A stretch of DNA of 64,000 bases, from contig JBHGNT010000017.1 of the NCBI GenBank assembly GCA_043228905.1, forward strand, positions 8,308,001 through 8,372,000, read 5' to 3'. This document shows, piece by piece, positions 7,354 through 62,000 of this stretch (positions within the stretch are counted from its first letter, which is position 1; each line of letters opens with the position of its first letter). Both the position numbers and the translations under genes were made by a program. The notes under the pieces were generated by a model. That model made no database searches and was not told where the DNA came from. It worked only from the letters and a program-made list of their open reading frames with translations. This stretch comes from Azolla caroliniana (Eukaryota > Plantae > Polypodiophyta).

Positions 7354-7783
7354 CATTGAAGAGAACAACACAAAATATTGCTCGGCCACAACCGAGTAAT
7401 GAATCACTTCAATGAGAATGAAACACAAAAATGGGAAATAGAGAGTAAACGCACGTACACACACAAGCTATAGAGAGTACTCAGGATGTTTACGTGGAAA
7501 ACCCTAATAGGGAAATACCATGGGAGTCCACAGACTCCAAACTATCACGGTACAATCAGAGACTCGGAGGCAACGACCTCAAGCTCAGTTTCTTCGCCGA
7601 GCGGCGGTTACAATAGAGTATCGCTCTGTATCTCCTCTCTCTCTCTCTACAACAACATATGACAACTACAACAAAGTGATTGCCCTAAGTCATATTTATA
7701 CTTATATGAACTTAGGGCTATTTACAAATATAGCCTCAATAGGCTTACTCAAAACATATTCACAAATATGTCTTCTCTTCCGG

Positions 7784-8544
7784 TGTCGTGAAGAATTTCG
7801 GCCATAGGCGAAAACCGGGAAACATTGTCTACATCGGCGGGGTGCAGCGTGTGTGACCCATGTACATTTGGTGTGAATATCGAGGGTGCCTTTATGGCGC
7901 CGAAGAGTAGTCAAGTCGGGACAGATGATCCCATGAAAGTCGGGATTTTTCCCACATTGTAACGCATCCCTCTCCTTGTTCTATAAAAGGGAGGGAACGC
8001 CCTTTGTAAAAGGGTTGCCCATTTTGGATTAGAGGGTATACCGGTAGGTTTAGGGGTAGGTTTCTTCTGCGTCTTCTTCTTCCCTTTCGTGTTCGTTTAG
8101 GGTTGGCTGCAGCTTATCTCCTGTGCAAGACCCCGCTCGGCGCGACGAGCCCGAGAGCTCCCCGACGGCGGCTTAACAGCAGGCGACTGTTGTAAACTAT
8201 CCTGGTCCGGCTCGAAGCCGGGAGTGTATTCTTCTTATATATATATACATATACGTTTGCGTCTGTCTGTGTATATTGGCGACTTGTTGGTGTCGGGTGC
8301 TCCCCTCCTTCCCTGCGTTTCCTGTACATAAGGGCGTGAGTCGGGTGTGTGCGTGTGTGCGTGTGTGCGCGCGTGTGTGTGCGTGAGTCGGTGTTAAGTA
8401 CGCTCTCTCTCCCTTCGGTTGCTTCCGGTGTGTTTCTGAGATGTCCCAGAAGCAGTGAAGCACGACTTCCTATGCTCCGTCGCTCCCTAGTCCAAGACCC
8501 CCGTGGTCCCGCCTTTCTCCACGCACGCGCGTAACAACGCGACA
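7784..8544 (+). repeat. 5' LTR of D (761 bp)
   Basis: Direct repeat of 12119-12876; TATA-like CTATAAAAG at ~7981; internal (TA)n, (GT/GC)n and (CT)n tracts. Confidence 0.95.
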
Positions 8545-8548
8545 TATT

Positions 8549-8566
8549 TGGTGAACCCGACGTGAA
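8549..8566 (+). promoter_or_regulatory. PBS complementary to tRNA-Trp
   Basis: TGGTGAACCCGACGTGAA is the reverse complement of ...TTCACGTCGGGTTCA-CCA, the plant cytosolic tRNA-Trp 3' end as I recall it. Confidence 0.85.
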
Positions 8567-8581
8567 AGGCGGCAAGGGAGG

Positions 8582-10315
8582 ATGGAGTCGGAAGATGACG
8601 ACCTTGCGGAGATGGTGACCGAAGTGGTGTTGGAGTCGGCACGAGTGGTGATGAGGCGAGAAGCAGCGCAACAAGCGGTTGGGCGAGTGGTCGAAAGAGT
8701 CGGCCGTTTCAATGGGGACAAAGTTCCATCTTACTTGGAAGCCTACAACGCGGAAATGGAAGAGCGTGGTGTAGACGAGGCGTTGAGGCTGGAGTTCTTC
8801 TGCCGGGTCGTAGCTATCCAGATGCATGCGGAAGTAATGGAGCTCCGTGAGGCTCATGGTTCGTGGGAGGCCTTCGAAGAGGCGATCCTGAAGGCATACG
8901 GAGGATGGCGGAAGAGCCGGGGACGGCACCACTTCGACCAGTGGGTAGCATCGGCAAAGACCCACCGGGGTGCGACAAAGGCGTTCCGGGAATTTGAGCG
9001 ACGACTTGCTCGGCTCCCAGAGCGGGAACAAGGTTTGGTGGGGGCGGATAAAGTCCTTTTGTTCGTCAGGTCGGTCGACCGAGCGGAACGGGAAGCCATC
9101 GGGATTGAGCTCGAAGATGATGATGGAGCGAATGGGCTTACGGAGGACTGGTCGAAGGTCGGAAGGGTGTGCCAAAGGCTAGACAACGAGCGAGCTGATA
9201 AGGCTAAGAGGAAGGTACGCGACGGCGTGCCATCACAGTGGGAAGAGGCTGAACGACAAAGAGAGTCGGCAAGGGTCGGCGTTGGGGCCAGGATTTCGGA
9301 GGCGTACGCAACGCTCAAAGCGATGCTCGAGGAAGAGGGGGGATCGAGGCCAGAAGCTGAGACCGAGGAGACGGACTTGCCCCGCGCGACGGCGGAAGAT
9401 TGGTACAACGGTACCACGGGAGGGGGTGCGGGACGAGCCACCCTCTCGATATGCGGAGAAAGATCGACCGAGGACAAGGTCGGGGATGGTGAGGCGACGA
9501 TGGTGATTCGAGCGGGGATGGTGATTCGAGCGGACATGAGGGAGTTCGGGCACGGAGGCCTGAAGCATCGAGCGGGGAGAAGACGGGCGGTGGTGCCGCA
9601 ACCTTACGCACCGGGCCTAGAGACTCCGGCAACCGGCCCGAGAGCTGGTGTGAGACCTAGAGTGACGGGCGGTGGCGGCGGCAAGGCGGGCGACCACGAC
9701 GGCGACGATGTGGGAGAGGGTGCGGAGCGAGTGACCCTCTCGACTTGTGGAAAGAGGACGGCCAAGGACGAGGCTGAGATACCGATCGAGGAACCGGAAC
9801 GTTGGGACCAGCGGTCTCGAGCGTGTCAGCCCGAGATCCCGGGCATTGGAGAAGCAAGCCCATACGGGGCTTGCGCGATCGTTAAGAAGACAACCGCCGA
9901 ACACGAAGAGTCGGTGGCTACGGACAAGGGCGTAAAACGGGTGGGTGATTCTTTGTGTCTTCCCACGCTTGCCCCAGAGACGATGGCAGTCGGGCCCGAA
10001 TACCCGCGTGAGTCCCAAGCGGAGGAAGGCGGCGGCGGAGGGCCAAGAATCACCGGCGAGACGATACGGGGAAGGATCGGACGAAAGCCCACGGACCCGA
10101 TTCCGGAGAACTCGGCATTCGGGCCCGTATGCCCATGTCAGACCGAGGAGATGGATGGCGGTACCGAGGAGTCTTGGCACAATGCCAGCGAAGTCGGATG
10201 GGAAACGACTTGCAAGGAGGCCGAGGGCGGACGCGGCACAAGGCGATCGGCATTCCGATACGGGTGGAGCATGATCCGGTTGTGGATCGTTCGATCGGGT
10301 CCGGTTTCGGCATGA
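8582..10315 (+). CDS. gag: gag-like ORF (577 aa): N-terminal capsid-like ~200 aa, then repeat-derived sequence
   Basis: ATG just after the PBS; GRFNGDKVPSYLEAY...SWEAFEEAILKAY resembles a retrotransposon gag capsid. Confidence 0.65.
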   Translation: MESEDDDLAEMVTEVVLESARVVMRREAAQQAVGRVVERVGRFNGDKVPSYLEAYNAEMEERGVDEALRLEFFCRVVAIQMHAEVMELREAHGSWEAFEEAILKAYGGWRKSRGRHHFDQWVASAKTHRGATKAFREFERRLARLPEREQGLVGADKVLLFVRSVDRAEREAIGIELEDDDGANGLTEDWSKVGRVCQRLDNERADKAKRKVRDGVPSQWEEAERQRESARVGVGARISEAYATLKAMLEEEGGSRPEAETEETDLPRATAEDWYNGTTGGGAGRATLSICGERSTEDKVGDGEATMVIRAGMVIRADMREFGHGGLKHRAGRRRAVVPQPYAPGLETPATGPRAGVRPRVTGGGGGKAGDHDGDDVGEGAERVTLSTCGKRTAKDEAEIPIEEPERWDQRSRACQPEIPGIGEASPYGACAIVKKTTAEHEESVATDKGVKRVGDSLCLPTLAPETMAVGPEYPRESQAEEGGGGGPRITGETIRGRIGRKPTDPIPENSAFGPVCPCQTEEMDGGTEESWHNASEVGWETTCKEAEGGRGTRRSAFRYGWSMIRLWIVRSGPVSA

Positions 10316-10433
10316 AAGAGCCGATACGGAAGGGGGTGCGGGACGAGCCGCTCTCTTTTACATGGGGAGAAAGACCGACCGGGCGAAGGTCGAGAGGACA
10401 AAGGAAGAGCAATAGGGAAGGCGACGAACGCCA

Positions 10434-10756
10434 ACGGAGGATCCTTCACACCGGTTCTAGAGACTTCAACGCGGTCGATGTAAGACCAAGATACTGACGG
10501 TGGCGGCGAGGTGACGAAGGAAAGGGCTACGGAAGGGCAATCTACGGAGGATCCTTCACACCGGTTCTAGAGACTTCGGCAGTCGGCAACGCGGTCGACG
10601 TAAGACCAAGATACTGACGGTGGCGGCGAGGTGACGAAGGAAAGGGCTACGGAAGGGCAATCTACGGAGGATCCTTCACACCGGTTCTAGAGACTTCGGC
10701 AGTCGGCAACGCGGTCGACGTAAGACCAAGATACTGACGGTGGTGGCGAGGTGACA
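10434..10756. repeat. ~2.7 tandem copies of a 110-120-bp unit inside D
   Basis: ACGGAGGATCCTTCACACCGGTTCTAGAGACTTC recurs at ~10434, 10544 and 10664. Confidence 0.9.
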
Positions 10757-12118
10757 TAGACAATGGGCATAAGGAAGTCCGGTCCTACGGGATCCCCACA
10801 CTTAACCAGAGACTCCGGTAGTTCGGCCAACATGGCAACATGAGACCGAGAGAGAAGGTTGGTGGCGGCGGGAAACGGGACCCGGCTACGCGGAAGGCAC
10901 GAGGAGAGTCCGGGAGTGACTCAAACAAAAGACACCCGACTTTCGGCAAGCATAGAAACGGAGTCCGGCCCTATGGGACCCTCACACTGATCCGGAGACT
11001 CCGGCAGTTCGGCCAACGTGGCAACGTGAGACCGGGGGAGAAGGACGGTGGCGGTAGGGAACGGGACCCGACGACACGAGGTATCGGAAGGAGCCGATAG
11101 GGGTGAACACGAGGAGGTGTGTCAGGCTGGAAAGGCACACCTTGGACAGAACAAGAGTCTCGCGAGTGGCCATCACGGGCCGGATCGAAGCGTGACTACG
11201 GGACGGTGCTCGGCGCGGGCGAGGCCGAACGAAGGAAGTGGAAGACGGCACAAGGGAGGTGCCGAGAACGAAGGGACAAGTGCCTAGTGGACTGCATAGG
11301 GTCGGAACCAGGACGGCAAGAGAGGCCGGAGGAGGATCCTCCACACTCGCTTCGTAGATCTCGGTAGCTCCGTCGAAATAACAAAGACTGACACGGCAAG
11401 CCGGGGTGACAAGCTGGTGGGGGCGAGGGGACGACGACAAGCGAAAGACCCAGGACCTGTTTCAGCAACATGACGACGGGAAGGGCCAAGCGGGCTACTA
11501 CGGGGTGTTCCTCGGATGCAAAGGACACCGGTATGCGGGTGAATAGCGATGCAGGATCAGGTCGGAAAGGGGCCGACGAGGAGTGCAACACGGGCAGTAC
11601 CAAACAACAGACGAGGGTAGGTGACACACGGAGGTGCCGGAGCGGAAAGGCGAGCGTGGAGAAGGCCGGAAAGGGATCTTCCACACCATTCTGGAGACCA
11701 TGGCGGTTCGAGCTAACGCGGCGATGTAAGACCATGGAGAAGGAAGGTGGCAGCAGAAGGACGAAGGCGACGCGAAACACCATCGGGACATCACGATTCG
11801 ACAACGGAGGCCAAGCGGGTTGCCACGGGCATTCCTCTAGCGGAGGACATCGGGCATACGGCGGGAAGCGGGGCGTTCATACGGCCGAACAAGGGCCAAC
11901 GGAAGAACGCGTGCTACGGAGATCGCGGTAGAGGACCAATCGACGGGTCGAACGAGCCTACGGGGAGGCGAGCGGGAAGGAAGACTCGAAGCCGCCGGAT
12001 CAAACCGGCAGCGAGCCAAGATGCGGATCACGGGAGACCGGTTTCTCACCGGCCGAAATCTCTCACCCTTCAACCAGATTGGCACGTACTGGTGGACGTG
12101 CAGTTAGGTGGGGGCGGA

Positions 12119-12876
12119 TGTCGTGAAGAATTTCGGCCATAGGCGAAAACCGGGAAACATTGTCTACATCGGCGGGGTGCAGCGTGTGTACGCACCCATG
12201 TACATTTTGTGTGAATATCGAGGGCGCCTTTATGGCGCCGAAGAGTAGTCAAGTCGGGACAGACGATCCCATGAAAGTCGGGATTTGTCCCACATTGTAA
12301 CACATCCCTCTCCTTGTTCTATAAAAGGGAGGGAACGCCCTTTGTAAAAGGGTTGCCCATTTTGGATTAGAGGGTATACCGGTAGGTTTAGGGTTAGGTT
12401 TCTTCTGATTCTTCTTCTTCCCCTTCGTGTTTGTTTAGGGTTGGCTGCAGTTTATCTCCTGTGCAAGACCCTGCTCGGCGCGACGAGCCCGAGAGCTCCC
12501 CGACGGCGGCTTGACAGCAGGCGACTGTTGTAAACTATCCTGGTCCGGCTCGAAGCCGGGAGTGTATTCTTCTTATATATATATACATATACGTTTGCGT
12601 CTGTCTCTGTATATTGGCGTCTTGTTGGTGTCGGGTGCTCCCCTCCTTCCCTGCGTTTCCTGTACATAAGGGCGTGAGTCGGGTGTGTGCGTGTGTGTGC
12701 GTGAGTCGGTGTTAAGCACGCTCTCTCTCTCTCGCTCTCTCTCCCTTCGGTTGCTTCCGGTGTGTTTCTGAGATGCCCCAGAAGCAGTGAAGCACGACTT
12801 CCTACGCTCCGTCGCTCCCTAGTCCAAGACCCCTGTGGTCCCGTCTTTCTCCACGCACGCGCGTAACAACGCGACA
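12119..12876 (+). repeat. 3' LTR of D (758 bp)
   Basis: Direct repeat of 7784-8544 with scattered substitutions and microsatellite length differences. Confidence 0.95.
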
Positions 12877-12980
12877 CCGGTTCTCAGGTCCATTGATCTA
12901 GTTTCCAGATCTCTTCCGGTTCTCACCGGGTCCTCTTCATTCATAACTGGATCCCATCTGGAGGGACCGTCTTCCCAATA

Positions 12981-13342
12981 ATCTCCCCTTCACTTCGGCA
13001 TGGGATGTCTCGCTAGCCCGATCCACTTTTGGCGTGCGTCCAACTTGTCGGTTGTGAACACATTGGTCAGCATATCCGACCCGTTCTCCTCCATGTGGAT
13101 GTTCGTCAGCACGAACTCTTGATCTTTTACTCTCTCCCGGATCCAGTGGTACCTTCGCTGGATATGTTTCGTTCGGGAATGGTAGGCCGCGTTCTTTGCA
13201 AGGTGGATGGCACTTTGACCGTTGTAGTAGAGCCGATATTCCTCCTGTCGGATCCCTAGCTCTCCGATGAAGTCCTTCATCTAGATTATCTCCTTACCGG
13301 CTTCCATAGCTGCCATTACTCCGCTTCCATGGTTGATAACGC
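12981..13342 (-). pseudogene. pol: Tork-like RNase H end plus PPT (B0) abutting the B1 LTR
   Basis: ORF 12990-13280 (HSRTKHIQRRYH); minus-strand PPT AAGGGGAGAT at 12981-12990. Confidence 0.87.
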
Positions 13343-15911: not shown

Positions 15912-17690
15912 TGTTAGGAATATGGCCAAGCATTTCGGTGAAGTGTTGCAACTTGTCTGATCCGAGTGGTTTGGTGAAGATATCGGCAATCTGCCGATCC
16001 GTCTGAACATATCGAAGTTCGACTTAATCGCTTAGGACACGCTCATGCACGAAGTGATAGTGCACTTCTATGTGCTTTGTGCGAGCATGGAATACGGGGT
16101 TCTTGGTGAGTTGAATGCTGCTCATGTTGTCACTATAGATTAGAATTGGGGTCAGAACCTCAATCTGTATGTCTCGCAACAGTCGCCGAAGACAAATGGC
16201 TTCATAGGTGGCATTGGTAGTGCCCCGGTATTCAGCCTCAGTGCTCAAAAGGGCCACTGTTGGCTGCTTTTTGCTGCTCCATGCAACAACCGCGCTACCA
16301 AGGGAAAACACATAGCCAGAGGTGGATCAACGATGTGATGCATCACCGGCCCAGTCGGCATCGGTGTAGCCAACCAGCTCTTCAGTTATACCATGCCGGT
16401 ATAACAGTCCCCGGTCCTTCGTGCCGCTCACATATCACAAAATTTGATGCGCACATAGAAGGTGCTCCACAGTCAGCTTCTGCATATATTGGCTGATCAC
16501 GCCAATCGGATAACTGATGTTGGGTTGGGTGATTGTCAAATATATGAGGCTTCCGACGATTTGTCGGAACCGCTTCTCATCGCAGGCCGGTCTGGAGTCA
16601 GGATGAAGCTTCTGGTTCCAGTCCAGGGTGTGGAGATCGGTCGGCATTCCGTCATGCCGAATTTGTACAACATATTCAACACATAGTGGCTTTGTGAGGG
16701 CAATATGCCATCGGGGGTTCGGATCACTTTGATCCCAAGGAAATAGTGAACATCCCTTAGGTCCTTCATCTCAAATGCGTTTGACAGCTGGGACTTGACT
16801 CGGTTGATTTCATCGAGTCTGGGTCCGGTGATGACTAGATCATCAACATACAACAAGATGCAAATCGGACTGTCTGGACCTTGCCAGATGAACAACGAAG
16901 AGTTGGACTTGGAGGCCGCAAACCCTATCTTACGCAACCGGTGTGTGATCTTCGCATTCCAAGCTTGGGGGGCTTGCTTCAGGCCATAAAGTGACTTCTT
17001 CAGCCGTCATACCACTGACTTGTTCATCTCTGACTGGAAAATGGGGGGTTGGGTCATAAAGAACTCTTCTTCAAGATTTCCTTGAAGAAATGCATTCTTC
17101 ATGTCCATCTGGTGAAGAGGTCACCCCCTTGCCACAACAACCGCCAGTACCACACGAACCGTTGTCATCTTCACTACTGGAGTGAAGGTCTCGTTGTAGT
17201 TGATTCCGTGGGTCTGTGCATATCCCTTCGCGACTAACCGGGCCTTGTACCGGTTAACTGAACCGTCGACATTGTACTTTACCTTGTACACCCACTTACA
17301 TCCGATCGGTTTACAGTGTCGGGGAGGGTCAACTAGGTCCTACGTGTCATTGGCATCAAGTGCCCACATTTCTTCCTCCATAACGGCACGCCAATTTGTG
17401 TCCTTTGTCGCTTCTTCGTAGCTATCCGGTTCACGCACTTCTGCCACCTTGGTCATGTACGCATAGTGATGCGCCATGTATACATTGTACCCATACCGCT
17501 TCACAGGGTTCTTTTGGCGGGAAGACTGGCGTAACTTGGTATTACCCAGTTTGGGGCCCTTCTTGGCCAGGTCAAACTTCATTCCCAAAGATCCGCCTTC
17601 ATCCTTTCCGGAGTCTGATTCGCTCCGATCCGTCTCAACGTTGTCAGTTTCGTATTCCGACATCTTCTTCTTCTCCTTCTCTTTGCGCGT

Positions 17691-18620
17691 TGTCATGAAG
17701 ATTTTCAGCAATGGTGTGAAAATCGCAAAAAACATACGAAATCGAGTATGAATCATATAAAACAATAATAGTGAAAATACTATTTTAAACAAGTTTACTA
17801 TCTTAGTACCAAAAGATGGAGGTCTTCAAGAGCTTTCGAATGCACTTTATTACATAAGAAACGAACATCTAAGTCTCAAGTTATGTGGGTAGGAACTTTG
17901 CAAAGGAAAAGAGAAAGATAAAACTGTGAGATATCCCACATAGACAGGACAAATAAGGATCTCACTGTATATAAGGCAGAACAAAAGCTATTATCTTTGT
18001 GTCTATGTGAGGAGCACACATGTTCCGGAGATTTGGGTAGTTGCAGAAAGCCAACGTGAGACCCAAGAGATGGACGGTGGTGATACCCATGTAGGACACT
18101 CCATTTGGAGACTTAGAAAGTTGCTTTAAGAACTAACGTGGGACCCAAGAGATAGATGGTAAGAGTGATGTATCAAAGAAAGGGAGGTATTAATCAAGAA
18201 ATTAAAAGTAAGAAATTCGTTATCCAATTGATGTATCAATCTTGTTCTTCAAATCTAAAGTCAAGAGTTCTATCTTATCTCAATCTCTCTCTCTTTCAAT
18301 GTATCTTAATTCCTTTCTTGCTGAAGCTAGTACAAACTTCGAGTCCTTCCGGTCTAGAACCGCGGCGGTTCCGAGTGATGTATGAAAGAAAGGGAGGTAT
18401 TAATCAAGAAATTAAAAGTAAGAAATTCGTTATCCAATTGATGTATCAATCTTGTTCTTCAAATCTAAAGTCAAGAGTTCTATCTTATCTCAATCTCTCT
18501 CTCTTTCAATGTATCTTAATTCCTTTCTTGCTAAAGCTAGTACAAACTTCGAGTCCTTCCGGTCTAGAACCGCGGCGGTTCCGCCTCACGATCCGTGCGT
18601 AGTGACGGATCTTCACAACA
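17691..18620 (+). repeat. Solo LTR (930 bp) of the D/E lineage, 4-bp TSD GCGT
   Basis: TGTCATGAAGAT...ATCTTCACAACA; GCGT at 17687-17690 and 18621-18624; the uninterrupted site in A4 (~22181) reads GCGCGTGAACC. Confidence 0.85.
18163..18583. repeat. Near-perfect 210-bp tandem duplication inside the solo LTR
   Basis: GAGTGATGTAT... starts at 18163 and again at 18373. Confidence 0.93.
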
Positions 18621-19319
18621 GCGTGAACCGTCTCCTCGGTTCCTTGCTCGGGGAGAGCACGACAAAGTCTCCAATACTCGCCGATTCCTCATCTGACTGG
18701 TCATCTCGTCTTAGCCGCTCATTTGGTCCACTTAGCCGAAATGAGATCGGACTCTCTTCTAGAGTGCCGAGGTCTTCATCTTCTAACTGGACCGGTTTTG
18801 GCTCACTAGCCTCATCCTTTAGTATCAGGTCAGGGTTGGAAGTCGGAGCCAGTAATGGATACCATGATGCCGTCTCATCAAACTCAATATCCCGGCTAAC
18901 TCGAACCTGCTTCGTCCGGGGGTTATAACATTTATACCCCTTTTGCTCATGTGAGTAACCGACCAAGATGCATTTTTCCGACTTTGCACATGCACATATG
19001 CAATGCTGTCGAATATCCGAAGGTGTCTCAAATTCGGCTTGCGCCCGAAATATAGCTCATCCACGGACACCTTGTCACCGATCCGGTTTTGGATGTAGAC
19101 GGCCTTCCGGACCACCTCAGCCCAGTAGAAGTGGGGCATGCTCTTCTCCTCCAGCATTGCCCTTGCCGTGTCGACAATCGACCGGTTCTTCCTCTCGGCC
19201 ACACCGTTTTGCTCAGGTGTGTATCTACAGCTAAATTCTCTCCGAATTCCGTTCTGCTGCAGATAACTGTTGAATTGGCCGGAAAAGTATTCTTTCCCGC
19301 CATCCGACTGTAGGCACTT

Positions 19320-22300
19320 TGTGAACGATTACTTGCGGAAGCGTTAGAAAACAGAGAAAGTAGAGAATACACAGAGTACATGGGAGAGACAGAGAGAGGA
19401 GAATGTAAAAGCTCTATTCAAAACAATATAATCGCTCTGTACATACAACTATGCTCAGTAGCACTATTTATACAAGTCCTCGTGGGACTGACAGAAGTAC
19501 CGCGTACTTCAATGCTCACACAAGCATCTGACACTTACTACGAGACTATTATTTCCTCGTAGTCTAAACTAATACTAGGCTTCCGGTTACCGATTGGATC
19601 CGGCTAACCGGCTCCCCAGCTCACCGTCTTTGTTGTTTGCCAGCTCGGTTGCTCACCGGCTTACCGATCCATCTTGCTCATCGGCTTACCGATCCATCTT
19701 GCTCACCGGCTTAGGCTTATCCAACCAATCCGGCTCTAGTTGAGCTTGCCGCTCAACACTCCCCCTCAAGCTCAACTTGAGGTTCGATCCTAGTGTTAGC
19801 TTCTGTGACAATCGGTTCTCCCAACCGACTTCTCTTGGCGTCGCTCTGCCTTGCTGGCACTCCTTGTTCGGTCCGGTTTTGTTTGCCGTGACCCCTCTTG
19901 TTCTACGTGCCAAAACCTTCTCGGTCGGTATGTCTGCTCAATAGGCCCCTCTCAGCTCCTTCGCTGCTATGACTCCGGCGCTTGCCGATCCGTCGGTTCC
20001 ACCATGATGGCATCGACTTCCGCTGCATCCGTGTCTGCTTGGCCTTGAATTGATCCGGTTCTTCTGAATCTGTCTGTTGAACCGAATCGACTGTCTCCGA
20101 TTCGTTCCAGCTCTTGTTTGAATCGGTTGCTCCCGATTCGTCTTCTGGTTCCAAGCCCTTCTCCACATCGAACCATGTCCGGGTCTTGGCCTTCTTCTTT
20201 CGGTCGGCTCTGTCTTTCTTGACTCTGCCGCTGGTGCCGCTTATTCCGACTTGTTCGGACGTGTCAACTTCCCTTGTCAACTCGGCTCCTTTCTTCTTCT
20301 TGACTCTCCCTTCATCGGTTCTTCCCTCACCGGCGCAATCGGCAGTCTCTTTGCCTTTGCCCGTTCCGGTGTTTCCGGTGTCTTTGCCCATTCTTCCCCT
20401 CAAGTGTGGCACGTCGAGATGCTGAACACCAAGCATTTCGGTGAAGCGTTGCAACTTGTCCGATCCGAGCGGTTTGGTGAAGATGTCGGCAACTTGGCGA
20501 TCTGTGTGAACATACCAAAGTTCAACCTCACCGCTCACGACACGCTCACGCACAAAGTGATAGTGCACTTCTATGTGCTTTGTGCGAGCATGGAATACGG
20601 GGTTCTTGGCGAGTTGCATGCTGCTGATGTTGTCGCAGTAGACCAGAATCGAGGTCGGTACCTCGATCTGTAGGTCTTACAGTAGTCGCCGAAGCCAAAT
20701 GGCTTCACAGGTGGCAATGGTAGCGCCCCAATACTCAGCCTCAGTGCTTGACAGAGCAACTGTTGGCTGCTTTTTGCTGCTCCACGCAACAACTGCGCTA
20801 CCTAGGGAAAACATGTAACCGAAGGTTGATCGGCGATCTAATGCATCGCCGGCCCAGTCGGCATCCGTGTAACCGACGAGCTCTTTGGTTATACCTCGCC
20901 GGTATAACAGTCCCCGGTCCTTCGTGCCGTTGACATACCGCAAGATCCTTTGCGTGCACTAAAGGTGCTCCACGGTTGGCTTATGCATGAACTGACTTAT
21001 CATTCCGACCGGATTGTTGATGTCGGGTCGCGTGATAGTCAAGTAAATAAGGCTTCCGACAATTTGTTGGAACCGTTGCTCGTTGCAGGTCGGCCCGGAG
21101 TTGGGACGAAGCTTTTGGTTCCGATCGAAGGGTGTGGAGATAGGTCAACATTCTGTCATGCCGAACTTGTACAACATATTCAAGACGTAATGTCTTTGTG
21201 AGAGGAATATTCTGTCTGGGGTTCGGATCACCTTGATCCCTAGAAAATAATGAAGGTCCCCCAGATCCTTCATCTCAAATGTGTCCGACAACTGTGACTT
21301 GACGCGGTTGACTTCTGGAAGACCCGGTCTGGTGATGACTAAATCATCAACATACAGCAGGATACATACCGGACCGGCTGAGCCTTGCCGGACGAACAAT
21401 AAAGAGTCCGATTTGGAGGCCACAAACCCCATCTTACGCAACTGGTGTGTGATCTTCGCATTCCAAGCTCGAGGGGCTTGCTTCAGGCCGTACAACGACT
21501 TCTTCTGCCGGCATACCGCCGACTTGTTCATCTCCGATTGAAAACCGGGAGGCTGAGTCATAAAGACTTCTTCTTCAAGATCACCTTGAAGAAATGCATT
21601 CTTCACATCCATCTGATGAAGATGCCACCCCCTTGCTACAACAACCGCCAACACCACTCGAACCGTCGTCATCTTCGCTATAGGAGCAAAGGTCTCATCG
21701 TAGTCGATTCTGTGGTTCTATGCATATCCCTTCGCCACTAACCGGGCCTTGTACCGGTTAACTGAACCGTCGGCATTGTACTTTACTTTGTACACCCACT
21801 TGCATCCGATCGTTTTACAGTGACGGGGAGGGTCAACTAGGTCCCATGTCTCGTTGACATCAAGTGCCCGCATTTCTTCCTCCATAGCGGCACGCCAATT
21901 TGTGTCCTTTGCCGCTTCTGCGTAGCTCACACACTTCCGCCACCTTAGTCATGTACGCGTAGCGATGCGCCATGTACTCATTGTACCTGCACCGCTTGAC
22001 GGGATCCTTCTGGCGGGTGGACCGGCGTAATTCACCGTTACCCGATTTGAGGCCCTTCTTGGCCGGATTGGTCTTCGTTGCCAAAGATCTGCCATTCTGC
22101 TTGCCGGAGTCGGACGCACACCGATCCGACTCATCGTTGCCGGTTTCAAATTCCGACATCTTCTTCTTCCCCTTCTCTTTGCGCGTGAACCGTGTCCTCG
22201 GTTCCTTGTGCGGAGTGCACGGTAGAGTCTCCACTACTCGCCGGTTCCTGATCGAATTGGTCAGATTGACTCAGTCTCTCGTTCGGCGCGCTCAACCGGA

Positions 22301-25150
22301 ACGATTCCGGACTCTCATCCTGAGTCCACGTTTCATCATCCTCTACTTGGGCCGGTTTAGGCTCACTAGCCTCATCCAACGGCATCGGGTCAGATTCGGA
22401 AGTTGGAGTCGGTAAGGAGTACCACGATGCCGATTCATCAAACTCGATATCTCGACTAACTCGGACCTGCTTTGTCCGGGGGTTATAACACTTATAACCC
22501 TTTTGCTCTTGAGCATAGCCGACTAGGATGCATTTTTCCGATTTTGCATCCAACTTCCTCCGCTTCTCATCCGGTACATGCACATATGCAATGCTACTGA
22601 AGATCTTAAGGTGTCTCAAATTCGGCTTCCGCCCGAAATATAGCTCGTGAGCTGACACCTTGTCACCAATCCGGTTCTGGATGTAGACAGTTGTTCGGAC
22701 TGCCTCCACCCAGTAGAATTTGGGCATGCTCTTCTCCTCCAGCATTGCCATTACCGCATCAATAAGCGACCGGTTCTTCCTCTCGGCAACACCGTTCTGT
22801 TGCGGTGTGTATCTGCAACTGAACTCTCGCCGAATTCCCATTTGTTGCAGATAATTGTTGATTTGGCCGGAAAAGTATTCTTTCCCGCCATCCGACCGCA
22901 GGCATTTGATCTTCCTCTCCGATTCCCATTCCACTATGCTTTCGAGAATCCGGAAACACTCGAAGACTTCACTCTTCCGCTCAATGAGGTAGATCCATGT
23001 GTGCCGCGTATAGTTGTCGATGAAGGAGACGAAATATCGACTCCCGCCAAGACTAACATTCTGTGCCGGTCCCCACATATCCGAATGGATTAGGTCGAGC
23101 TTGTGACAGCTCCGGTTACATTCGGTAGGGAATGGAAGCCGGTGTTGCTTCCCGCGTTGGCAGGCTTCACATACTTGGGCCTTCCCGCCGCTGAACTTCG
23201 GCAAACCGAAAACAACTTGTTTCGTTTGCAGGTCTTGAAGCCTCCGGTAATTGACGTGGCCTATCCGCTTGTGCCACAGGTCGATGTCTGATTCGAGCTT
23301 CTGTTATTTTGCAAATAGAGTGGTGCCAACGTCATTGGTGTCGAGGATAAACATCCTCCCGTCTCTTCGCCCTTGCGCAATAATCTGGCCCTCTTTCTCG
23401 ATGAAGCACCCAAGGTGCGTAAACCGCACCTACATCCCTTGGTCGACGATCTGTCCGACTGACACCAGGTTCTTCGTGATTGTAAGAACATGTAATATGT
23501 TCATCACCTTCCCCTTCTATCCGACGTGGTTCAAAGGGACTTCTCCGACGTGCACGATTGCGTGAGGAGTGTCGTCTCCAGTTTCGACTACTCGTGGTTG
23601 ATCCGGTTTCTCCAAAAAGGAGAACCACTCTTTGTGGCTCGTCATGTGGTTCGACGCACCAGAATCAACATACCACAGTTCCTCCGATTTGGAAGTGATC
23701 TTCTTCATTGAGTTCGCCTCGTGCTTCATCACCAAGGCTGGCCCATTACCGTTCTTGGATCCTCCCGATCCCTTCGCGTAGTGCGAGCTTTGCCGGCCAT
23801 CCTTGCTGGCCTTGCCGGATCCGGATTTGTCCGAATCGGCGCACTTTCTCCAGCACTCGCTTTCTCTGTGGCCCTTCTTGCCACAGTACCAGCATTCCAT
23901 TGCAGATTTGTCTTGCCGGCCTCCGGCATCGCCTTGACTCCCCCTGCCTATGGAAGTCCCGGAACTGCTATCGCCATCGTTCTTGCTCTTGCCGGCCGCC
24001 TTCAGTGCGTGCCGACCCACCTCGTCCACCACGCCCACAGGACCGATCCGCCTCCGTGTACAACATCCGGCTGTCAGTGGGTGCATTAGTTGATGCACCG
24101 GCGTGGTTCTCCTCTACAAGGAGCATTGACTATAAGTCGAAAAATGACGGCGTATTCTCCCTTGTACACACCGCCGTTCAGAACGCTCTGAACTTAGACG
24201 CCAGGCCCCCAAGACAGACCTGTACCATCTCATCTGCCTTGAAGGTAACGTTGATAGAGGCAAGTGAGTCACAGATCTCTTTGATCCGGGCCGTGTAATC
24301 CGCCACCGACATGCCCTTCTGTCGGACATTGCTCAACTCCTGTCGGAGTTGCAGCTTCTGGGCTGTAGTGCTCGCAGCGAAAACCTTCTTCAGGTTCCCA
24401 CAAGCCTCCTTTGGCGTCTTGGCATCTTGGATGTGGCTCAACATCTGGTCTCTGACACCGGACGCGAAGCAGTACATCATTCTGCTTGCCGATTGTTCCC
24501 ACACTGGGAAGTCCTTATGTGCCGCATCAGGTGTGGTTTTATTGGCTCCTTTGACAAAACTCCAGTAGCCATGCCCAAGCAGGTACTGGTGCATCTTGTA
24601 CGACCAAGATGCGTAGTTGGATCTGTCGAGTTTCTCCATAGGGAGTAAGCTAGCCATCACTCTATCCATCACTTCTATGTCTGTTGTTCTTACGACCTGT
24701 TAGGGTTTGCTTTCAAGCGTTTGTTTGTTGATACCATGTGAACGATTACTTGCGAAAGCATTAGAAAACAGAGAAAGTAGAGAGTACACAGAGTACACGG
24801 GAGAGGTAGAGAGAGTAGAACGTAAAAGCTCTATTCAAAACAATATAATCACTCTGTACATACAACTATGCTCAGTAGCGCTATTTATACAAGTCCTCGT
24901 GGGAGTGACAGAAGTACCGTGTACTTCAATGCTCACACGAGCATCTGACACTTACTACTACACTATAATTGCCTAGTAGTCTAAAATAATACTAGGCTTC
25001 CGATTACCGATTGGATCCGGCTAACCAGCTCCCCAGCTCACCGTCTCTGTTGTTTGCTGGCTCGGTTGCTCACCGGCTTACCGATCCGTCTCGCTCACCG
25101 GCTCAAGCTTATCCAGCCGATCCGGCTCCAGTTGAGCTTGCCACACAACA
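19320..25150 (-). mobile_element. Full-length decayed copia A4 inserted in the A3 integrase, TSD CACTT
   Basis: LTRs 24737-25150 and 19320-19758; CACTT at 19315-19319 and 25151-25155; PBS truncated (TGGTATCA only); PPT at ~19759-19769. Confidence 0.93.
19903..24672 (-). pseudogene. gag-pol: A4 gag-pol with stops and frameshifts
   Basis: gag 24178-24672, CCHC/PR 23517-24098, INT 22146-23204, RT 21145-21930, RNase H plus extension 19903-20943. Confidence 0.9.
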
Positions 25151-26382
25151 CACTTGATCTTCCTCTCCGTTTCCCATTCAATTAGGCTTTGCAGGTTCTG
25201 AAAACAATCGAAGACTTCGCTCTTCCGCTCAATGAGGTAGATCCATGTGTGCCGGCTGTAGTCGTCAATGAAGGAGACGAAGTATCGACTCCCGCCAAGA
25301 CTAACGTTCTGTGCCTGTCCCCATACATTCGAATGAATAAGGTCGAGCTTGTTACGGCTACAGTTTTGTTCGGTGCGGAATGGAAGGCGGTGTTGCTTCC
25401 CGAGTTGGCAGGCTTTACATATTTGGGCCTTCTGGCCATTGAACTTCAGCAAACTGAAAACAACTTGTTTCTTTTGCAGGTATTGAAGCCTTCGGTAATT
25501 GACGTGGCCGATCCGCTTGTGTCGGAGATCAATATCCGATTCAATCTTCTATCCTTTGGCGAACAAAGCGGTGCCGACGTCATTGGTGTCGAGGATGAAC
25601 ATCCTCCCATCTCTGTGCCCTTGTGTAATAATCTGGCCCTCTTCCTCGATGAAGCACCCAAGGTGCATAAAGTACACCTACATCCCTTGGTCAACAATCT
25701 GACCGACTGACACTAGGTTCTTCGTGATAGTTGAAACATGTAATGCGTTCATCAACTTCCCCCTCTGTCTCACGTGTCTCAAAGGGACTTCTCCGATATG
25801 CACGATTGGGTGAGGATTGTCGTCTCCGGTTTCGACGACTCCCGGTTGTTCCGGTTTCTCCAAGAAAGAGAACCATTCTCTGTGGCTCGTCATGTGATTC
25901 GACGTACCGGAATCAATGTACCACACTTCCTCCGATTTGGAAGTGGTCTTCTTCATCAAGTTAGCCTCTTGTTTCATCACCAAAGCTGACCCTTTACCGG
26001 CTTTTCCGGTTTTCGATCCTCCCGATCCTTCTACGTAGTGTGAGTATTGCCGGTTCTTTCTACTGGCCTTGCCGGATCCGGATCTGTCTGAATCAGCGCG
26101 CTTCTTCCAACACTCGCTTTCTCTGTGGCCCTTTTTACCATAGTACCAAGTACCAACATTCCGTGTTGGCCTTTGCTTGCCGGCCTCCAGCACCGCCTTG
26201 ACTCCCCCTTCTTGTGGAGGGTTCAAAATTGTTGTCGGCACGTTCTCTATGCCTTCGGTCCTTCTCTTGCTGGCCGCTACCATTGCGAGCCGACCCGCCT
26301 CACCCACCACACCCACGGGGCTGATCCACCTCCGTGTACAACATCCGGCTGTCGGTGGGTGCACTTGTTTACACACCGGCGT

Positions 26383-27219
26383 TGTCGTACACTACGTGAA
26401 AAACTTATAAAGTACCGATTTAATAAATATGAATAAATAGTAGAAAATATTAAAATATATATAACATGCATAGGGCAAGATTCGAACCTTGCACCTTCAT
26501 GTTAATAATGTAATGTCTTACCATTACACTAGCATTTCATTAATGTTCAAAAATAGATGTTCCACATAGAAAGGTTAGTTCAGCTAGGATAAACTTTAGT
26601 TAAAAGAAAACACATGCTAAAAGAAAAAGCTACGCATGCACATCTAGCGTGCATGAACGCTATAGTTGATAAAAAACGCACAAGTTAGAAAAAACATGAT
26701 CACTTTAGTTAAAGCATATAGTCTATCTATAGGAAAAGCATGGAGTCTATAGTTAGAGAAAAAAAAAGCATGGATTCCTAAGACTCCCTCATCACTACAT
26801 AAGGATGGGGAGCACAATGTAATAGGGTGTGTGAAATATTTGGGAAATTGGATATATTTCCTAAAACACCAATAATAAAATAGAATCGTGGGATTCACGA
26901 AGTTTTATATAATCTATCTCTTTCAATCTAAATTCATATTCTTACATAAATATTGATTAATGTAATACTTGTGGGATTCACAAGGTTTGATCTCTTTTCT
27001 CAATCTACTCTAATCTATTCTAAACTATTTTAATTTATTATTACGATTAAGATAAACTAAAACAATTATACTTGTGGGATTCACAAGTTTCTATATCTCT
27101 TTCTTATAATCTATTCATATTCATAACTAGATTAGCCTCAAATTCTTCCTCCTCCTAGTCCAAAACCCCGGTGGTTCCCACCCGACTCACGCAACAATCT
27201 GGAGCCAAAAGGCACGACA
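26383..27219 (+). repeat. AT-rich solo LTR (837 bp), D/E-lineage termini, degenerate 4-bp TSD GCGT/ACAT
   Basis: TGTCG...CGACA; U5 motif CCTAGTCCAAAACCCCGGTGGTTCCC; empty site in A4 (~24097) reads CACCGGCGTGGTTCTCC. Confidence 0.72.
26468..26535 (-). other. tRNA-derived / Pol III A-box + B-box-like segment inside the solo LTR
   Basis: Minus strand GCTAGTGTAATGGTAAGAC...GCAAGGTTCGAATCTTGC; no convincing acceptor or anticodon stem. Confidence 0.55.
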
Positions 27220-27518
27220 ACATGATTCTCCTCTACAAAGAGCATCGATTGTAAGTCGAAAAATGACGGCGTATTCTCCCTTGTACATACCGCCGTTCGG
27301 AACGCTCTGAACTTAGACGCTAGGCCCCCAAGACAGATCTGCACCATCTCATCTTCCTCTATAGTGACGTTGATAGAGGCTAGTGAGTCACAGATCTCTT
27401 TGATTCAGGCCGTGTAATCGGCTACCGACATGTCCTTCTATCGGACATTGCTCAACTCCTGTCAGAGTTGCAGCTTCTGGGTCGTAGTGCTTGCCGCGAA
27501 AACCTTCTTCAGGTGTCC

Positions 27519-33874: not shown

Positions 33875-33885
33875 TGGCGACCACG
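33875..33885 (+). promoter_or_regulatory. PBS of F, probably tRNA-Arg type
   Basis: TGGCGACCAC 6 nt after the LTR end; matches the ...GTGGTCG-CCA end of plant tRNA-Arg(TCG) as I recall it. Confidence 0.6.
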
Positions 33886-39712: not shown

Positions 39713-39774
39713 GATCACATACCGTCAAAAAAAAAAAAAAAAAGAAATCATTAAAAATCGAGGTATGAACGGAC

Positions 39775-48178: not shown

Positions 48179-48869
48179 AGGGGGAGTTTGTTAGGAAACA
48201 GGTCCCTCCGAATGGGAAGTGGGAAGACCCGGTGAGAACCGGATGAGGAGTACCTGGAAACGGAAGACCCGGCGAGAACTAGATGAGGAGTACCCGGCTA
48301 CGGAAACCCGGTGAGAACCAGATGTGGTGTACCCGGCAAGCGCCGGATGATGAGTACCCGGCTACGGAAAACCCGGTGAGAACCGGCTGAAGTGTGCCCG
48401 GCAAGCGCCGAATGATGCAGACCCAGTGAAAAGTGCTCACCAGATGAAGGGACATATTTGTAAATAGCCGAAAAGTCATATTAGTATAAATATGACTTAG
48501 GGCAAACAAAGAATAGAGATGTTATTGTTATTCTTGTTGGCGCAAGATTAGTGCGCGCAACTGGATACAGAGAGAGTGAGAGAGAGGAAGAGGTCGTTGC
48601 CTCTATTGTAATCACCGCCTGTGGCGAAGATAGAAAGCTCAAGGTCGTTGCTTCGGTGCTTTACCATTTTGTAAATTCTGACATAGTGATAGTTTGCAGT
48701 CTTTGGGTTGCCGTGGTTTTTCCCATATTTGGGTTTCCCACATAAACATCCTGTGTACTCTTCTCTTCACTGTGTAGTGCCTTCATTCCCTGTTTTTCTA
48801 TGTTTTATGATTCTAAGCTCGGTTGTGGCCGAGCGTTGTTCATCGGGAGCGTGTGTTCCTTTCACAAAC

Positions 48870-57600: not shown

Positions 57601-58470
57601 GTGAAGGGGGAGTTTGTTAGGAAACAGGTCCCTCCGGATGAGGAGTACCCGGCTACGGATGACCCGGTGAGAACTGGATGATGAAGACCCGGTGATAACC
57701 GGATGAGGAGGACCCGACTACGGATGACCCGGAGAGAACCGAATGATGAGTGCCCGGCAAGCGCCGGATGATGCAGGCCCGGTGAAGAGTGCTCACCGGA
57801 TGAAGGGACATATTCCACGTAAACATCCTGTGTACTCTTCTCTCTATTGTGTTGTGCTTTCATTCTCTGTTTTTTGTGTTTGATTCTAGGCTCGGTTGTG
57901 GCCGAGCGCTGTTCATCGGAGCGTGTAGTTCCTGTCAAAAATGTCGGAATGAGCAACGACGATGACAGAGTCAAGAAGGACGAGCCGACCAGAAGAAGAA
58001 GGCCAAAACCCGGACATGGTGTGATGTGGTAAAGGGCCTAAAGATTGAAGACGAACTGGAGACAACCAATTCGGACAAGAGCTGGAACGAATTAGAGGTA
58101 ACCCATTCAGAGGAGCCGAATCAACTAAAGGCCAAGCAGACAAGAAGGTAGCAGAAGTCGTCACCGACATAGAGGAACCGATAGATCGAGAAGTGTCGAA
58201 GTGGCAACAGTGAAAGAGTTGAGATGGGGCTTATGAGCACACAAGCCGACCGAGAAGGTCGAGGTGTGCGGAACTGGATGGGTCGCGGAAAGCAGGACCG
58301 GACGGGTTGAGGAGCGCGAGCAAGGTGGGAAAACGCCAGGAGGAGCCAGGGGGAAGGACCGGTAGACACTGACAATACGATCCAACCTCAAGTTGAGCTT
58401 GAGGGGGAGTGTTGAGCAAGCATGCTCAACATGATCCGGATTGGTTGAATAAGCCAAGATCCAGATCAGT
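51641..58470 (+). mobile_element. Copia A2, second part (RT, RNase H, 3' extension split by B3, PPT, first ~60 bp of the 3' LTR)
   Basis: RT 51896-52291, RNase H ~52620-53060, extension 53060-53205 + 57938-58400, LTR start TGTTGAGC at 58410. Confidence 0.85.
53206..57937 (+). mobile_element. Tork-like copia B3, TSD AAAAT
   Basis: LTRs 53206-53849 and 57615-57937 (the latter internally deleted); PBS 53853-53864; AAAAT at 53201-53205 and 57938-57942; RT deleted after YVDD (~56968). Confidence 0.93.
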
Positions 58471-59024
58471 GTCCCCATCTTATGCAATCGGTGCGTGATC
58501 TTCAAATTCCAAGCATAGGGGGCTTGCTTGAAGCTATAATGCAACTTCTTTAGTCGACATACTGCCGACTTGTTCACCTCCGACTGAAATTTGGGTGGTT
58601 GGACCATGTATACTTGTTCTTCAAGATCTCCTTGAAGAAAAGAGTTCTTCACATGCATTTGGTGGAGATGCCACCCCCTTGCCGCTGCGACGCCAACACC
58701 ACACAAACCGTCGTCATCTTCGCTACTGGTGCAAAGGTCTTGTCGTAGTCCATTCTGTGGATCTGCATGTATCCCTTGGCCACCAAATGGTCGACATTAT
58801 ACTTCACCTTATATACCTATTTTCAGTTGATCGGTTTGCAATCTTGGGGAGGGTCAACCAGGTCCCATGTGTCGTTGGCATCGAGTGCCCACATTTCTTC
58901 CTCCATGGCCGATTGCCATTTGGCATCCTGTGATGTCTTTGCATAGCTCTCCGGCTCATGGACTTCTACCACTTTCATCATGTACGCATAGTGGTGCATC
59001 ATGTACTCATTATATCCATACCGG
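58471..59024 (-). pseudogene. pol: Copia A5 RT fragment (host of E)
   Basis: YGYNEYMMHHYAYM...WDLVDPP and HQMHVKNSFLQGDL on minus. Confidence 0.85.
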
Positions 59025-62000
59025 TGTCGCGTTGTTACGCGCGTGCGTGGAGAATGAGGCAGGACCACCGAGGCCTTGGACCAAGAAATAGTTGAGAAGG
59101 AGGAGAACGGAAACGCAACAGACGCACTTGCACACGCACTGACACGAGAGCACACAAGAATAACAGTCCAACAACATAGCAAACGAGACGACTCGAAGTC
59201 CGAGTATATAATCACGTAAGTATATAAATGTATGTATATATCAATACGGTTACAACTAACAGGCCGGCAAGGCGGACACCGACGCCTGCTCACACACCCA
59301 CACAGAAGAGCGAGATGGAGTCTCTGCCGGAAGCACACAGCCTCCCGAAAACCTGCGCAAAAATGGCTATGGAGAGTGTTAGAGAAGAAGGGCTCGGTCC
59401 CAGTCCGGCAACACCTCGTCCACTCTAACGCGCGATTCCTTTCTCATTCCTCTCCCTCTCTTTTATAGCCCAAGGAGGGAGGCCGTTATCACCCGTTACA
59501 TCATATTACTTCTCAGTCCTTTCGGACAGAGATACAATTTGATTCTCTCCCTATTGAATGCGTGCTACCTAGGATTTCACCTCAACCGACTTGTACCTAC
59601 CTACTTACTATACAACGAAAAGTGTGCTCGTGTGCAATGGGCGGTTTACACATGCTAAACTTGGTTTCCGCCTAGGGACGGTTTTCTTCATGACATCCGC
59701 CCCCACCTAACCGCGCATCCACCGGTATGTGCCAAAATTGGTCTCCTGCTAGAGAAAACCAGTCCATGCTTTACTACTCATCTTTTGGTTCGACATCCGC
59801 CTCGAACCGCCCTTCATCGCCGTCCAAGCTTCCCAGATCCGGCTCGTACTGGTGTCATTTCTTAAATGCTTTGACCCTCTTCCCCGCTACCAGTATTGCC
59901 ATCCTCGTACTGTCGAGCTCTGCAAGATGGTAGGTCCCGTTGTTGTTGGTGCTTGTCACCACGTAATGCCCGAACCACCTCCGTGCAAACTTCCGTGTTG
60001 CCCTGTGCTGGTTATCGAGGTTGCTGTCATACACTAGGACCCAGTCGCCTTCCTCAATCTTCTTTGGTCGCAACCGGTGCGCCCGATCGAACCAGATCTT
60101 GTTACGCTCCCTTGCCGCCTGCAGCTTTTCCTTTGCCCGTTTCACGTCCTCCGGCCTCCGCTCGAGTTGCCGAATCCGCGCCGCCATCAACTCCTCCCGG
60201 CTCATCTCGTCCTTCCAATCTACCGCCGCCCACGAAGGAACCGTCTGTTCCATTGGCATGATCGGCTTCTGACCTTACATCAGCTATGCCAGCATGAACC
60301 CTGTCACCGAATTGTGCGTAGTTCGGTCCGCCCATAGTGCGTAAGGAAGGAGCCGCGGACAATTCCCGACCTGCCCTCTGCATGCACGCACCAACGCCTT
60401 TACGATCGTCCCGTGCCCACATTCTACCTTCTCGTTCGCCTCTGGGTTGTACGCCGTAGTGAGGGAGAGTTTGACCCCTAGCCGGTCGAACAGCTCCTCA
60501 GCTTCCCGCGCATCCAGCTCTCCCCAGTCCGCCATGATCCTCCCGACGCACCCGTACCGACACACCACCTCCTCGATCAGGAACCGGCATACTACCGCAG
60601 TTGTCTTGTTATGTAGTGCACGGCCTTCCACCTGGTTCGTTAAGTCTTCCCGCGCAAGCACCAAGTACCGCATCTGTCCTGCTCCCATCAGCATCGTCAC
60701 CAAGTCCACCATCCACTTGAAATGGACCGCAGGCGGGTAAGTCGGGTGTAGCTCGTCCCGATGTCGGACTACAGAGTGCATCTGACAGCTTTCGCAAGTT
60801 GTTACGAACCGATGCACGTCCTTGTACAGCCCCGGCCACCAGTACTTCTCCTTCACCTTCTCGAACGTGGCCCACGTTTCGCGGTGCCCGGCCCAGGGAC
60901 TCTCATGAAATGCCGCCAGTAGTTCCTCTTGTTCTTCTTTCTTCGCCACTACCCGGAGCGGAACACCGTTTCTCTTCTTCGGGTGCTTCCATATGTACCC
61001 GTCCCGAAGGAAGAATCGGTACGCTTTCTTCCGGATCCGGTTGGTCTCTTCCTTTGTCCACGCCGCGTCCGATGTCATTGATTTCAGGAGCCCGCCGATC
61101 CGGAGCCACTCCCTGTTGTACTTGCTCTCGTCGAATTCGTTAAACGCCTGAGTGCTCCCCTTTCTGGTTGCCACATATGCCGCCTCGAAGAAATCTACGC
61201 GGACTTCCTCGTCCTCCGAAACCATGTCGTCCTCATTTCCGAACCTCGCCCTTGAGAGCATGTCGGCCATGGCATTGTCTTTTCCAGAAATGTGTCGTAT
61301 CTCCGGATTCAGGGACTTGATGTACGCTATCCACCTGAGCATTGCTAAGTCCGGCGTCGCACATCCGGAAACCATGCCGAGAATCGGCAGGCAGTCCATC
61401 TCGATTATTACCCCTGTCCCGATCAGGTAGTCTTTATCAGCCTTCACCGCCGAAACGATACCCCAGAGTTCGCATTTAACCTGGGCGTATCCTCGTTGTC
61501 GCTCACTCAGGACCTTCACGCTGAACCAGATGGGGAACCTCGTGCCAACGTCATCCTCTTGGTTGATCACCCATCCGATCCCAGTCGGACTCGTGTCTAC
61601 GGTTACGTAAATCGAAGTGTCTTTGCCGTAGACCGCCTTTCGGAGCGCCGGTGCCGTGGCAAGTGCTTCCTTCATCTTTCAGACTGACTCAACCCATATA
61701 GCGGCTCCGTGATGTGGGCATAATGTGGGATCCAGATATATGGTAGAACGCGCATGCTCCCAAGAATCTCCAAACCTCCGTAACCGAATTGCAGTCATGC
61801 TTCATCGCGGAGATGGCATCCACCTTGGTCGGAGACGGTTTCCGACCATATGGTCCTCATAGGTGCCCGACGACCATGATCTCTAATTGCCTAAAGGCCG
61901 ATTTTTCCCCGGAGAAGGTGAGCCTCGCGCCTTCTAGTCTCTGCAGCACCTTCTCGCAGTCATTGATGTGAGTCGCCACAAAATTCCGACATCCGTCTGG

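What the first reader, a model, noticed from the sequence alone, without database searches (positions are those of the whole stretch)
7780..59695. A gypsy lineage making 4-bp TSDs centred on CpG: candidate CpG-targeting integration system
Seen: four independent insertions with TGTCR...CRACA-type ends. D has CCGG/CCGG. The solo LTR at 17691-18620 has GCGT/GCGT, confirmed against the empty site in A4. The solo LTR at 26383-27219 has GCGT/ACAT, explicable by two G>A changes. E has a CCGG flank, one side only. The other LTR insertions with both ends visible have 5-bp, non-CpG TSDs (TGTCT, CACTT, TATAA, CAAAC, GTACC, AAAAT). Established: plant LTR elements usually give 5-bp TSDs with weak sequence preference, and I recall the fungal Ylt1 element giving 4-bp TSDs. 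Inference: an integrase with a 4-bp stagger that prefers S-CG-K sites, possibly methylated CpG, giving heterochromatin targeting without a chromodomain. With n=4 in CG-rich hosts this is suggestive only.
Basis: partly seen in the sequence, partly recalled or inferred. Interest (0 to 1): 0.85.

Follow-up and report, generated by a model that had tools for sequence, protein, structure and literature searches.

The report
Phygy-type retrotransposons inserting at CG sites
These jumping genes really do duplicate a 4-base target with CG in the middle when they insert, but that habit is already published for the moss "Phygy" group to which they likely belong, and the idea that they read DNA methylation is untested.

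Summary
D has CCGG/CCGG. The solo LTR at 17691 has GCGT/GCGT with an empty paralogous site. The solo LTR at 26383 has GCGT/ACAT against an empty GCGT. E has one CCGG flank. In 45 unique 3' flanks from metagenome contigs with the D/E LTR end, 42 have a central CG (background 0.036; p=3e-57) and the other 3 read TG/CA. The motif is V-CG-B, mostly ACGT; S-CG-K fits only 12 of 45. The habit is published: Neumann et al. 2019 describe the Physcomitrella lineage Phygy as 4-bp TSD (100%, NCGN), tRNA-Trp PBS, no extra domain. Here the TSD, the domain order and the lack of chromodomain and aRH match. The PBS isotype (Trp) is recalled, not tool-tested, and no labelled Phygy or Ylt1 sequence was available for a tree. 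E's closest named relatives are Riccia and Adiantum proteins. Likely mechanism: a 4-bp-stagger integrase that bends DNA at a central pyrimidine-purine step and reads it as CG. Reading of methyl-CG is neither shown nor excluded. Five look-ups in this scan's notes found no earlier report of it.

The parts
7780..7783 (.). D left TSD copy CCGG
7784..8544 (+). D 5' LTR
   Evidence: self-BLAST
8549..8566 (+). D primer-binding site; complement of the small RNA listed as miR894 family; tRNA-Trp isotype recalled, not tool-tested
   Evidence: exact 18-mer in 8 of 12 PBS-adjacent loci
8555..10315 (+). D gag-like ORF; no pol in D, so a non-autonomous or deleted derivative
   Evidence: 26-29% to Riccia polyproteins, E about 1e-15; no pol hit in D
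12103..12118 (+). D polypurine tract, same 16 bases as in E
12119..12876 (+). D 3' LTR
12877..12880 (.). D right TSD copy CCGG
17687..18624 (+). Solo LTR S1 (17691-18620) with GCGT/GCGT TSD, inserted in a copia pol
22183..22186 (.). Empty paralogous site for S1 (single GCGT)
24101..24104 (.). Empty paralogous site for S2 (single GCGT)
26379..27223 (+). Solo LTR S2 (26383-27219) with GCGT/ACAT (decayed) TSD
   Evidence: 25-bp motif shared with D, E=7e-4
59021..59024 (.). E flank CCGG (one side only)
59025..59695 (-). E 3' LTR; last 57 aligned bases 89% identical to D's
59696..59711 (-). E polypurine tract
59858..63826 (-). E pol, order PR-RT-RH-INT, broken by stops and frameshifts, no chromodomain; cut near 63829 by another LTR, so the 5' part is outside the window

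Best explanation
These are insertions of a non-chromovirus Ty3/gypsy lineage, likely Phygy or its immediate kin, that duplicate a 4-bp V-CG-B target, and the integrase likely finds that target by bending DNA at a flexible central pyrimidine-purine step and reading that step as CG by sequence, with no need for methylation. Shown: 4-bp register, central CG, avoidance of T at the first and A at the last position, PR-RT-RH-INT order, an integrase ending in an SH3-like domain and a short acidic tail, a shared PBS and PPT. Inferred: the bend-and-read mechanism, by analogy with 4-bp retroviral integrases (foamy virus consensus VYRB), and that the invariant ADRGE motif or the basic C-terminal domain narrows YR to CG. 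D is a pol-less derivative, presumably mobilised in trans; S1 and S2 are likely solo LTRs of related subfamilies.
For: 42 of 45 unique flanks have a central CG although CA, TG and TA are each about twice as common nearby (0.068 vs 0.036). Among the 42 CG sites T is first in 0 (p=2e-8) and A last in 1 (p=6e-7) against background NCGN. This is the V..B rule of PFV and other 4-bp retroviruses in PMC4422553 (passages). Host-species contigs agree at the 5' end: pooled loose ends finish ACGA, CCGA, ACGT, GCGA, and further contigs match from 7780 or 7781. PMC6317226: Phygy 'insertion preference to NCGN'; Additional file 5: n=186, 4 bp 100% NCGN, tRNA-Trp 81%, no extra domain. PMC6911290 finds 4 bp commonest in Phygy. 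No chromodomain in 10 full-length relatives or in E's C-terminus. E sits in a clade (SH-aLRT 99) with Riccia and Adiantum proteins. ADRGE makes up 111 of 123 motif matches in the held proteins, and its Glu aligns to PFV Ala188, a target-contacting residue. CG density is flat from +5 to +1000 (3.1-3.7 per 100 nt).
Against: No labelled Phygy sequence could be put in the tree: REXdb Additional files 1 and 3 were too large to read, and no Physcomitrium-named protein appeared. The tRNA isotype is recalled; searches did not supply it. 0 of 3 two-ended metagenome solo LTRs had perfect TSDs. The 45 flanks belong to the D/E LTR end only; S1 and S2 rest on one site each and on short motifs. The tree is the quick version without bootstrap and includes an Olpidium (fungal MAG) fragment inside the plant clade. 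No data here separate methylated from unmethylated CG, and 19 of 44 flanks resemble repeats found in the window, which fits either reading.
Confidence: 0.8

Rival explanations
1. The integrase prefers methylated CG, so the TSD motif doubles as a way to target heterochromatin without a chromodomain.
For: All four window sites lie in other retrotransposons; 19 of 44 metagenome flanks resemble window repeats. The 3 of 45 non-CG flanks and S2's right copy show CG>TG/CA changes, so such sites are methylated at some time. Phygy domains are reported enriched at liverwort centromeres (PMC12885004) and often nested in Tcn1 (PMC6911290).
Against: Decay can follow insertion, since the element itself attracts methylation (established knowledge). 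The repeat fraction has no genome baseline. CG density around sites is flat. The V-YR-B shape rule explains the outer bases and holds on naked DNA for PFV. Drosophila gypsy families have sharp 4-bp motifs (ATAT, TATA) that contain no CG (PMC3276498). No methyl-reader domain was found.
Confidence: 0.12
2. The elements belong to a separate lineage, closer to fungal Ylt1-like elements, that has the same target habit as Phygy.
For: Fungal relatives exist at 41-53% RT identity (Smittium, Olpidium). Phygy was defined as specific to Physcomitrella, and no labelled comparison was possible.
Against: TSD length, NCGN motif, absence of extra domains and a non-seed-plant context all match Phygy. The nearest named relatives are plant proteins. 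Phygy and Ylt1-like affinity need not exclude each other.
Confidence: 0.07
3. The CG-centred 4-mers are chance in CG-rich hosts, or 5-bp TSDs were misread.
For: Window CG frequency is 0.060 and D's host LTR is rich in CCGG; 0 of 3 two-ended metagenome LTRs are perfect.
Against: p=2.7e-57 in 45 flanks; CG is at positions 2-3 in 42 and at 1-2 or 3-4 in none; empty sites give an exact 4-bp overlap.
Confidence: 0.01

Closest known systems
Phygy (non-chromovirus Ty3/gypsy of Physcomitrella patens; Neumann et al. 2019, PMC6317226; passages and Additional file 5 read)
   Same: 4-bp TSD, NCGN preference, tRNA-type PBS (Trp by my recall), no chromodomain or aRH, non-seed-plant context.
   Different: A different host genome, likely a bryophyte; D is a 5.1-kb pol-less derivative against 7.7-10.0 kb for Phygy; the motif is resolved here as V-CG-B with ACGT modal. 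Sequence membership was not testable.
Prototype foamy virus and other 4-bp retroviral integrases (Serrao et al. 2015, PMC4422553; passages)
   Same: 4-bp stagger, central YR step, T and A disfavoured at the TSD edges (VYRB); the integrase core aligns (E=2.6e-9).
   Different: There YR is a weak preference over several dinucleotides; here it is almost exclusively CG.
Fungal Ylt1-like Ty3/gypsy (Novikova et al. 2010, PMC2864245; passages)
   Same: Non-chromovirus gypsy; named fungal relatives of E at 41-53% RT identity.
   Different: No labelled Ylt1 was available; its TSD length was not found in the passages read; fungal hits are more distant than liverwort and fern hits.
TatI and Selgy (PMC6317226, Additional file 5)
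   Same: 4-bp TSD; TatI also uses tRNA-Trp.
   Different: No NCGN preference listed; TatI carries aRH, which was not seen here; Selgy uses tRNA-Ala and is about 5 kb when complete.

Membership tests
Phygy | 4-bp TSD | tested here: met
   0 of 3 two-ended metagenome LTRs perfect, noted
Phygy | NCGN target preference | tested here: met
   42 of 45 flanks
Phygy | PBS complementary to tRNA-Trp | tested here: inconclusive
   PBS conserved (8 of 12 exact) and equal to the complement of a CCA-ended small RNA mapped to gypsy PBS (PMC5846777); the Trp isotype is recalled; searches gave no confirmation
Phygy | Gypsy domain order with no extra domain (no chromodomain, no aRH) | tested here: met
   one weak RVT_3 hit below cut-off (E=0.048) in 1 of 10 relatives
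Phygy | RT/RH/INT fall in the REXdb Phygy clade | not testable with these tools
   REXdb files too large; no labelled P. patens protein; the tree has no Phygy reference
Phygy | Full length about 7.7-10 kb | not testable with these tools
   E runs out of the window and no genome is held; D is a deleted derivative
Chromovirus | C-terminal chromodomain | tested here: not met
Tat (TatI) | Additional aRH domain | tested here: not met
   no second RNase H above cut-off in 10 relatives
Ylt1-like | RT/INT clade with Ylt1 and Tca3 | not testable with these tools
   no labelled reference; only Smittium and Olpidium proteins as named fungal relatives

The most novel reading that the evidence does not exclude
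Integrases of this clade, spread across mosses, liverworts and ferns, read 5-methyl-CG directly in the target-capture complex and so steer insertions into methylated repeats without any chromatin-reader domain; re-insertion into the duplicated target then builds head-to-tail arrays.
Probability: 0.12. Interest if true: 0.7.

Novelty: new member of a known kind. Interest (0 to 1): 0.2.

Why it matters
The CG-centred 4-bp target is a published trait of Phygy, so the headline is not new. What this adds is a quantified motif (42 of 45 CG, V-CG-B, ACGT modal), close relatives in liverworts and a fern, and a candidate residue motif. This is an unusually strict dinucleotide preference for an LTR integrase and a clean system in which to ask whether an integrase can read 5mC. 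If it does, it would be a reader-domain-free route to heterochromatin targeting.

Tried and rejected
Genome-wide harvest from the assembly: no genome is held, so metagenome loci and Logan contigs were used instead; read laying gives only pooled loose ends, not per-site counts. S-CG-K rejected (12 of 45). A CG-cluster preference was not seen (flat CG profile). An extended motif beyond the TSD: only G at +5 (17 of 45, p=0.007, uncorrected for the 12 positions looked at), not claimed. Labelled Phygy reference: none among the names shown; the RLG2 transcript in PMC7466625 is cut at 400 characters and was uninformative; the Atlas gave unnamed clusters. tRNA isotype: DNA scans of viral and prokaryote collections and papers gave nothing. 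Ylt1 TSD length not found in the passages. A paper joining integrase, methylated CpG, target site, retrotransposon and moss: 0 hits (one search of an open-access library only). The first TSD search missed Neumann 2019, which I opened from recall. The careful tree did not finish; the quick tree is reported. Sequencing-run shares under 0.2 were not used. No structure prediction or complex job was run. Supplements not seen that bear on membership: PMC6317226 Additional files 1 and 3.
Full report
Observation. The window is a nest of copia elements, one LINE and two gypsy lineages. D (7784-12876) has two LTRs, a PBS, a gag-like ORF and a polypurine tract, and CCGG on both sides. S1 (17691-18620) has GCGT/GCGT, and the paralogous copia at 22183-22186 has one GCGT with both flanks aligned. 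S2 (26383-27219) has GCGT/ACAT against an empty GCGT at 24101-24104. E is a minus-strand gypsy whose 3' LTR (59025-59695) abuts CCGG; its other end is outside the window. Of the six 5-bp control TSDs, five are clean and TATAA is not. D's empty site is only half shown, and its host LTR is rich in CCGG.

One lineage? D and E share the LTR end (89% over 57 columns), the LTR start and a 16-base PPT. D's gag matches the N-terminus of Riccia polyproteins whose pol matches E. D has no pol. S1 shares the LTR start; S2 shares a 25-bp U5 motif (E=7e-4). The link is therefore firm for D and E and weaker for the solo LTRs.

Larger sample. No genome is held. I scanned metagenome contigs for the 20-base LTR end, which does not condition on the flank, and got 59 loci. 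Twelve were 5' LTRs followed by the PBS and two were duplicates; these 14 were dropped. Of 45 unique flanks, 42 begin N-CG-N and 3 begin with TG/CA in the centre (p=2.7e-57 against a local CG frequency of 0.036). Counts: ACGT 19, CCGT 6, ACGC 4, ACGG 4, CCGG 3, GCGT 2, and one each of GCGG, CCGA, GCGC, CCGC, ATGT, CCAG, CCAT. S-CG-K fits 12 of 45; V-CG-B fits 41 of 45. Among the 42 CG sites, T is never first and A is last once, both far below background NCGN. Eight independent 5' flanks give 5 CG, 2 TG/CA and 1 other at -3/-2. Contigs of runs that hold the element agree at the 5' end in pooled form (4 runs, at most 3 samples, and one may be the window's own source). CG at +2/+3 after the LTR end and at -3/-2 before its start means a 4-bp duplication. 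Against this, none of the three two-ended solo LTRs in the short-read contigs has a perfect TSD; assembly chimeras or recombination between copies are my unproven explanation.

What the element is. E's pol runs PR-RT-RH-INT and is broken. Ten full-length relatives and E's own C-terminus show no chromodomain and no second RNase H above cut-off; the integrase ends in an SH3-like domain and a short acidic tail. Named relatives are Riccia (58-67% over the RT region) and Adiantum (65%), then Olpidium (53%), Smittium (41-42%) and Chara (38%); the window's other gypsy is 24%. In a quick tree of 48 rows chosen by me from several hundred held proteins, E lies in a clade of 20 (SH-aLRT 99) with the Riccia and Adiantum rows and one Olpidium MAG fragment. 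The host is therefore likely a non-seed plant (inference). The PBS 18-mer is exact in 8 of 12 loci and is the complement of a CCA-ended small RNA that PMC5846777 lists as miR894 family, mapped to gypsy PBS (passages). I recall it as the 3' end of plant tRNA-Trp; no call confirmed this.

Known system. Neumann et al. [quoted passage not shown] PMC6911290 (passages) also finds 4 bp commonest in Phygy and GC-rich centres in 4-bp TSDs. PMC12885004 (passages) reports Phygy in a liverwort. Every feature I could test is met; the phylogenetic criterion could not be tested, because the REXdb files were too large and no labelled P. patens protein turned up. So: it works like Phygy (shown) and is a member of Phygy (likely, about 0.9).

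Mechanism. Shown: 4-bp stagger, central CG, V..B edges. From PMC4422553 (passages): 4-bp retroviral integrases bend the target sharply at a central YR step, disfavour T and A at the TSD edges (PFV consensus VYRB), and do so largely independently of chromatin. The edges here fit that rule, but flexibility alone does not explain CG over CA, TG and TA, which are each twice as common nearby, so a base-specific readout is inferred. A candidate is the ADRGE motif at the second catalytic aspartate (111 of 123 motif matches), whose Glu aligns with PFV Ala188; the basic C-terminal domain is another. This is inference from alignment only. Because the TSD regenerates the target next to each LTR, re-insertion would give LTR end, NCGN, LTR start; such junctions occur in L015 (1 of 59 loci) and in contigs of two runs.

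Methylation. Nothing here separates methylated from unmethylated CG. For: all four window sites and 19 of 44 metagenome flanks lie in or near repeat-like DNA (no baseline), and CG decay is seen in 3 of 45 flanks and in S2. Against: decay can postdate insertion, CG density near sites is flat, no reader domain is present, and sharp CG-free 4-bp motifs occur in Drosophila gypsy families (PMC3276498, passages). One search for the idea in print returned 0 papers, in an open-access library only. I give it 0.12.

Other papers consulted without yield: PMC2864245 (passages) and PMC5014426 (passages) gave no Ylt1 TSD length; PMC7466625 (passages and supplements) does not name Phygy; PMC12877858 (passages), PMC11658184 (supplement search) and PMC9928184 (passages) gave no isotype. 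Five look-ups in this scan's notes found no earlier report of this trait.

Verdict. A real and strong target preference that is already described for Phygy; new family members in another genome. Interest 0.2.

Noticed in passing
L015:237-255; runs X4 and X5 (table 5c): An LTR end joined to an LTR start through a single N-CG-N 4-mer, as expected if a copy re-inserts into the duplicated target and forms a tandem.
   Followed up: partly
   Followed up: no
window about 26445-26515, minus strand, inside solo LTR S2: By eye, a tRNA-like stretch with A-box and B-box-like motifs; ARAGORN and Rfam did not call it a tRNA.
   Followed up: partly
window 8549-8566: The PBS is the complement of the small RNA catalogued as miR894, first reported in moss; that miRNA may be a tRNA 3' fragment that matches this lineage's PBS.
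   Followed up: partly
window 18163-18583: S1 carries a 211-bp tandem duplication at 99% identity near its 3' end, and its two ends form an imperfect 12-bp inverted repeat.
   Followed up: no
L022 flank; L040: Self-nesting: one insertion lies in an RT region 88% identical to E's, another inside the CG-rich end of a sister LTR.
   Followed up: no
P0397: A protein labelled Olpidium bornovanus (MAG, 2.6-kb contig) falls inside the plant clade; contamination or transfer, not examined.
   Followed up: no
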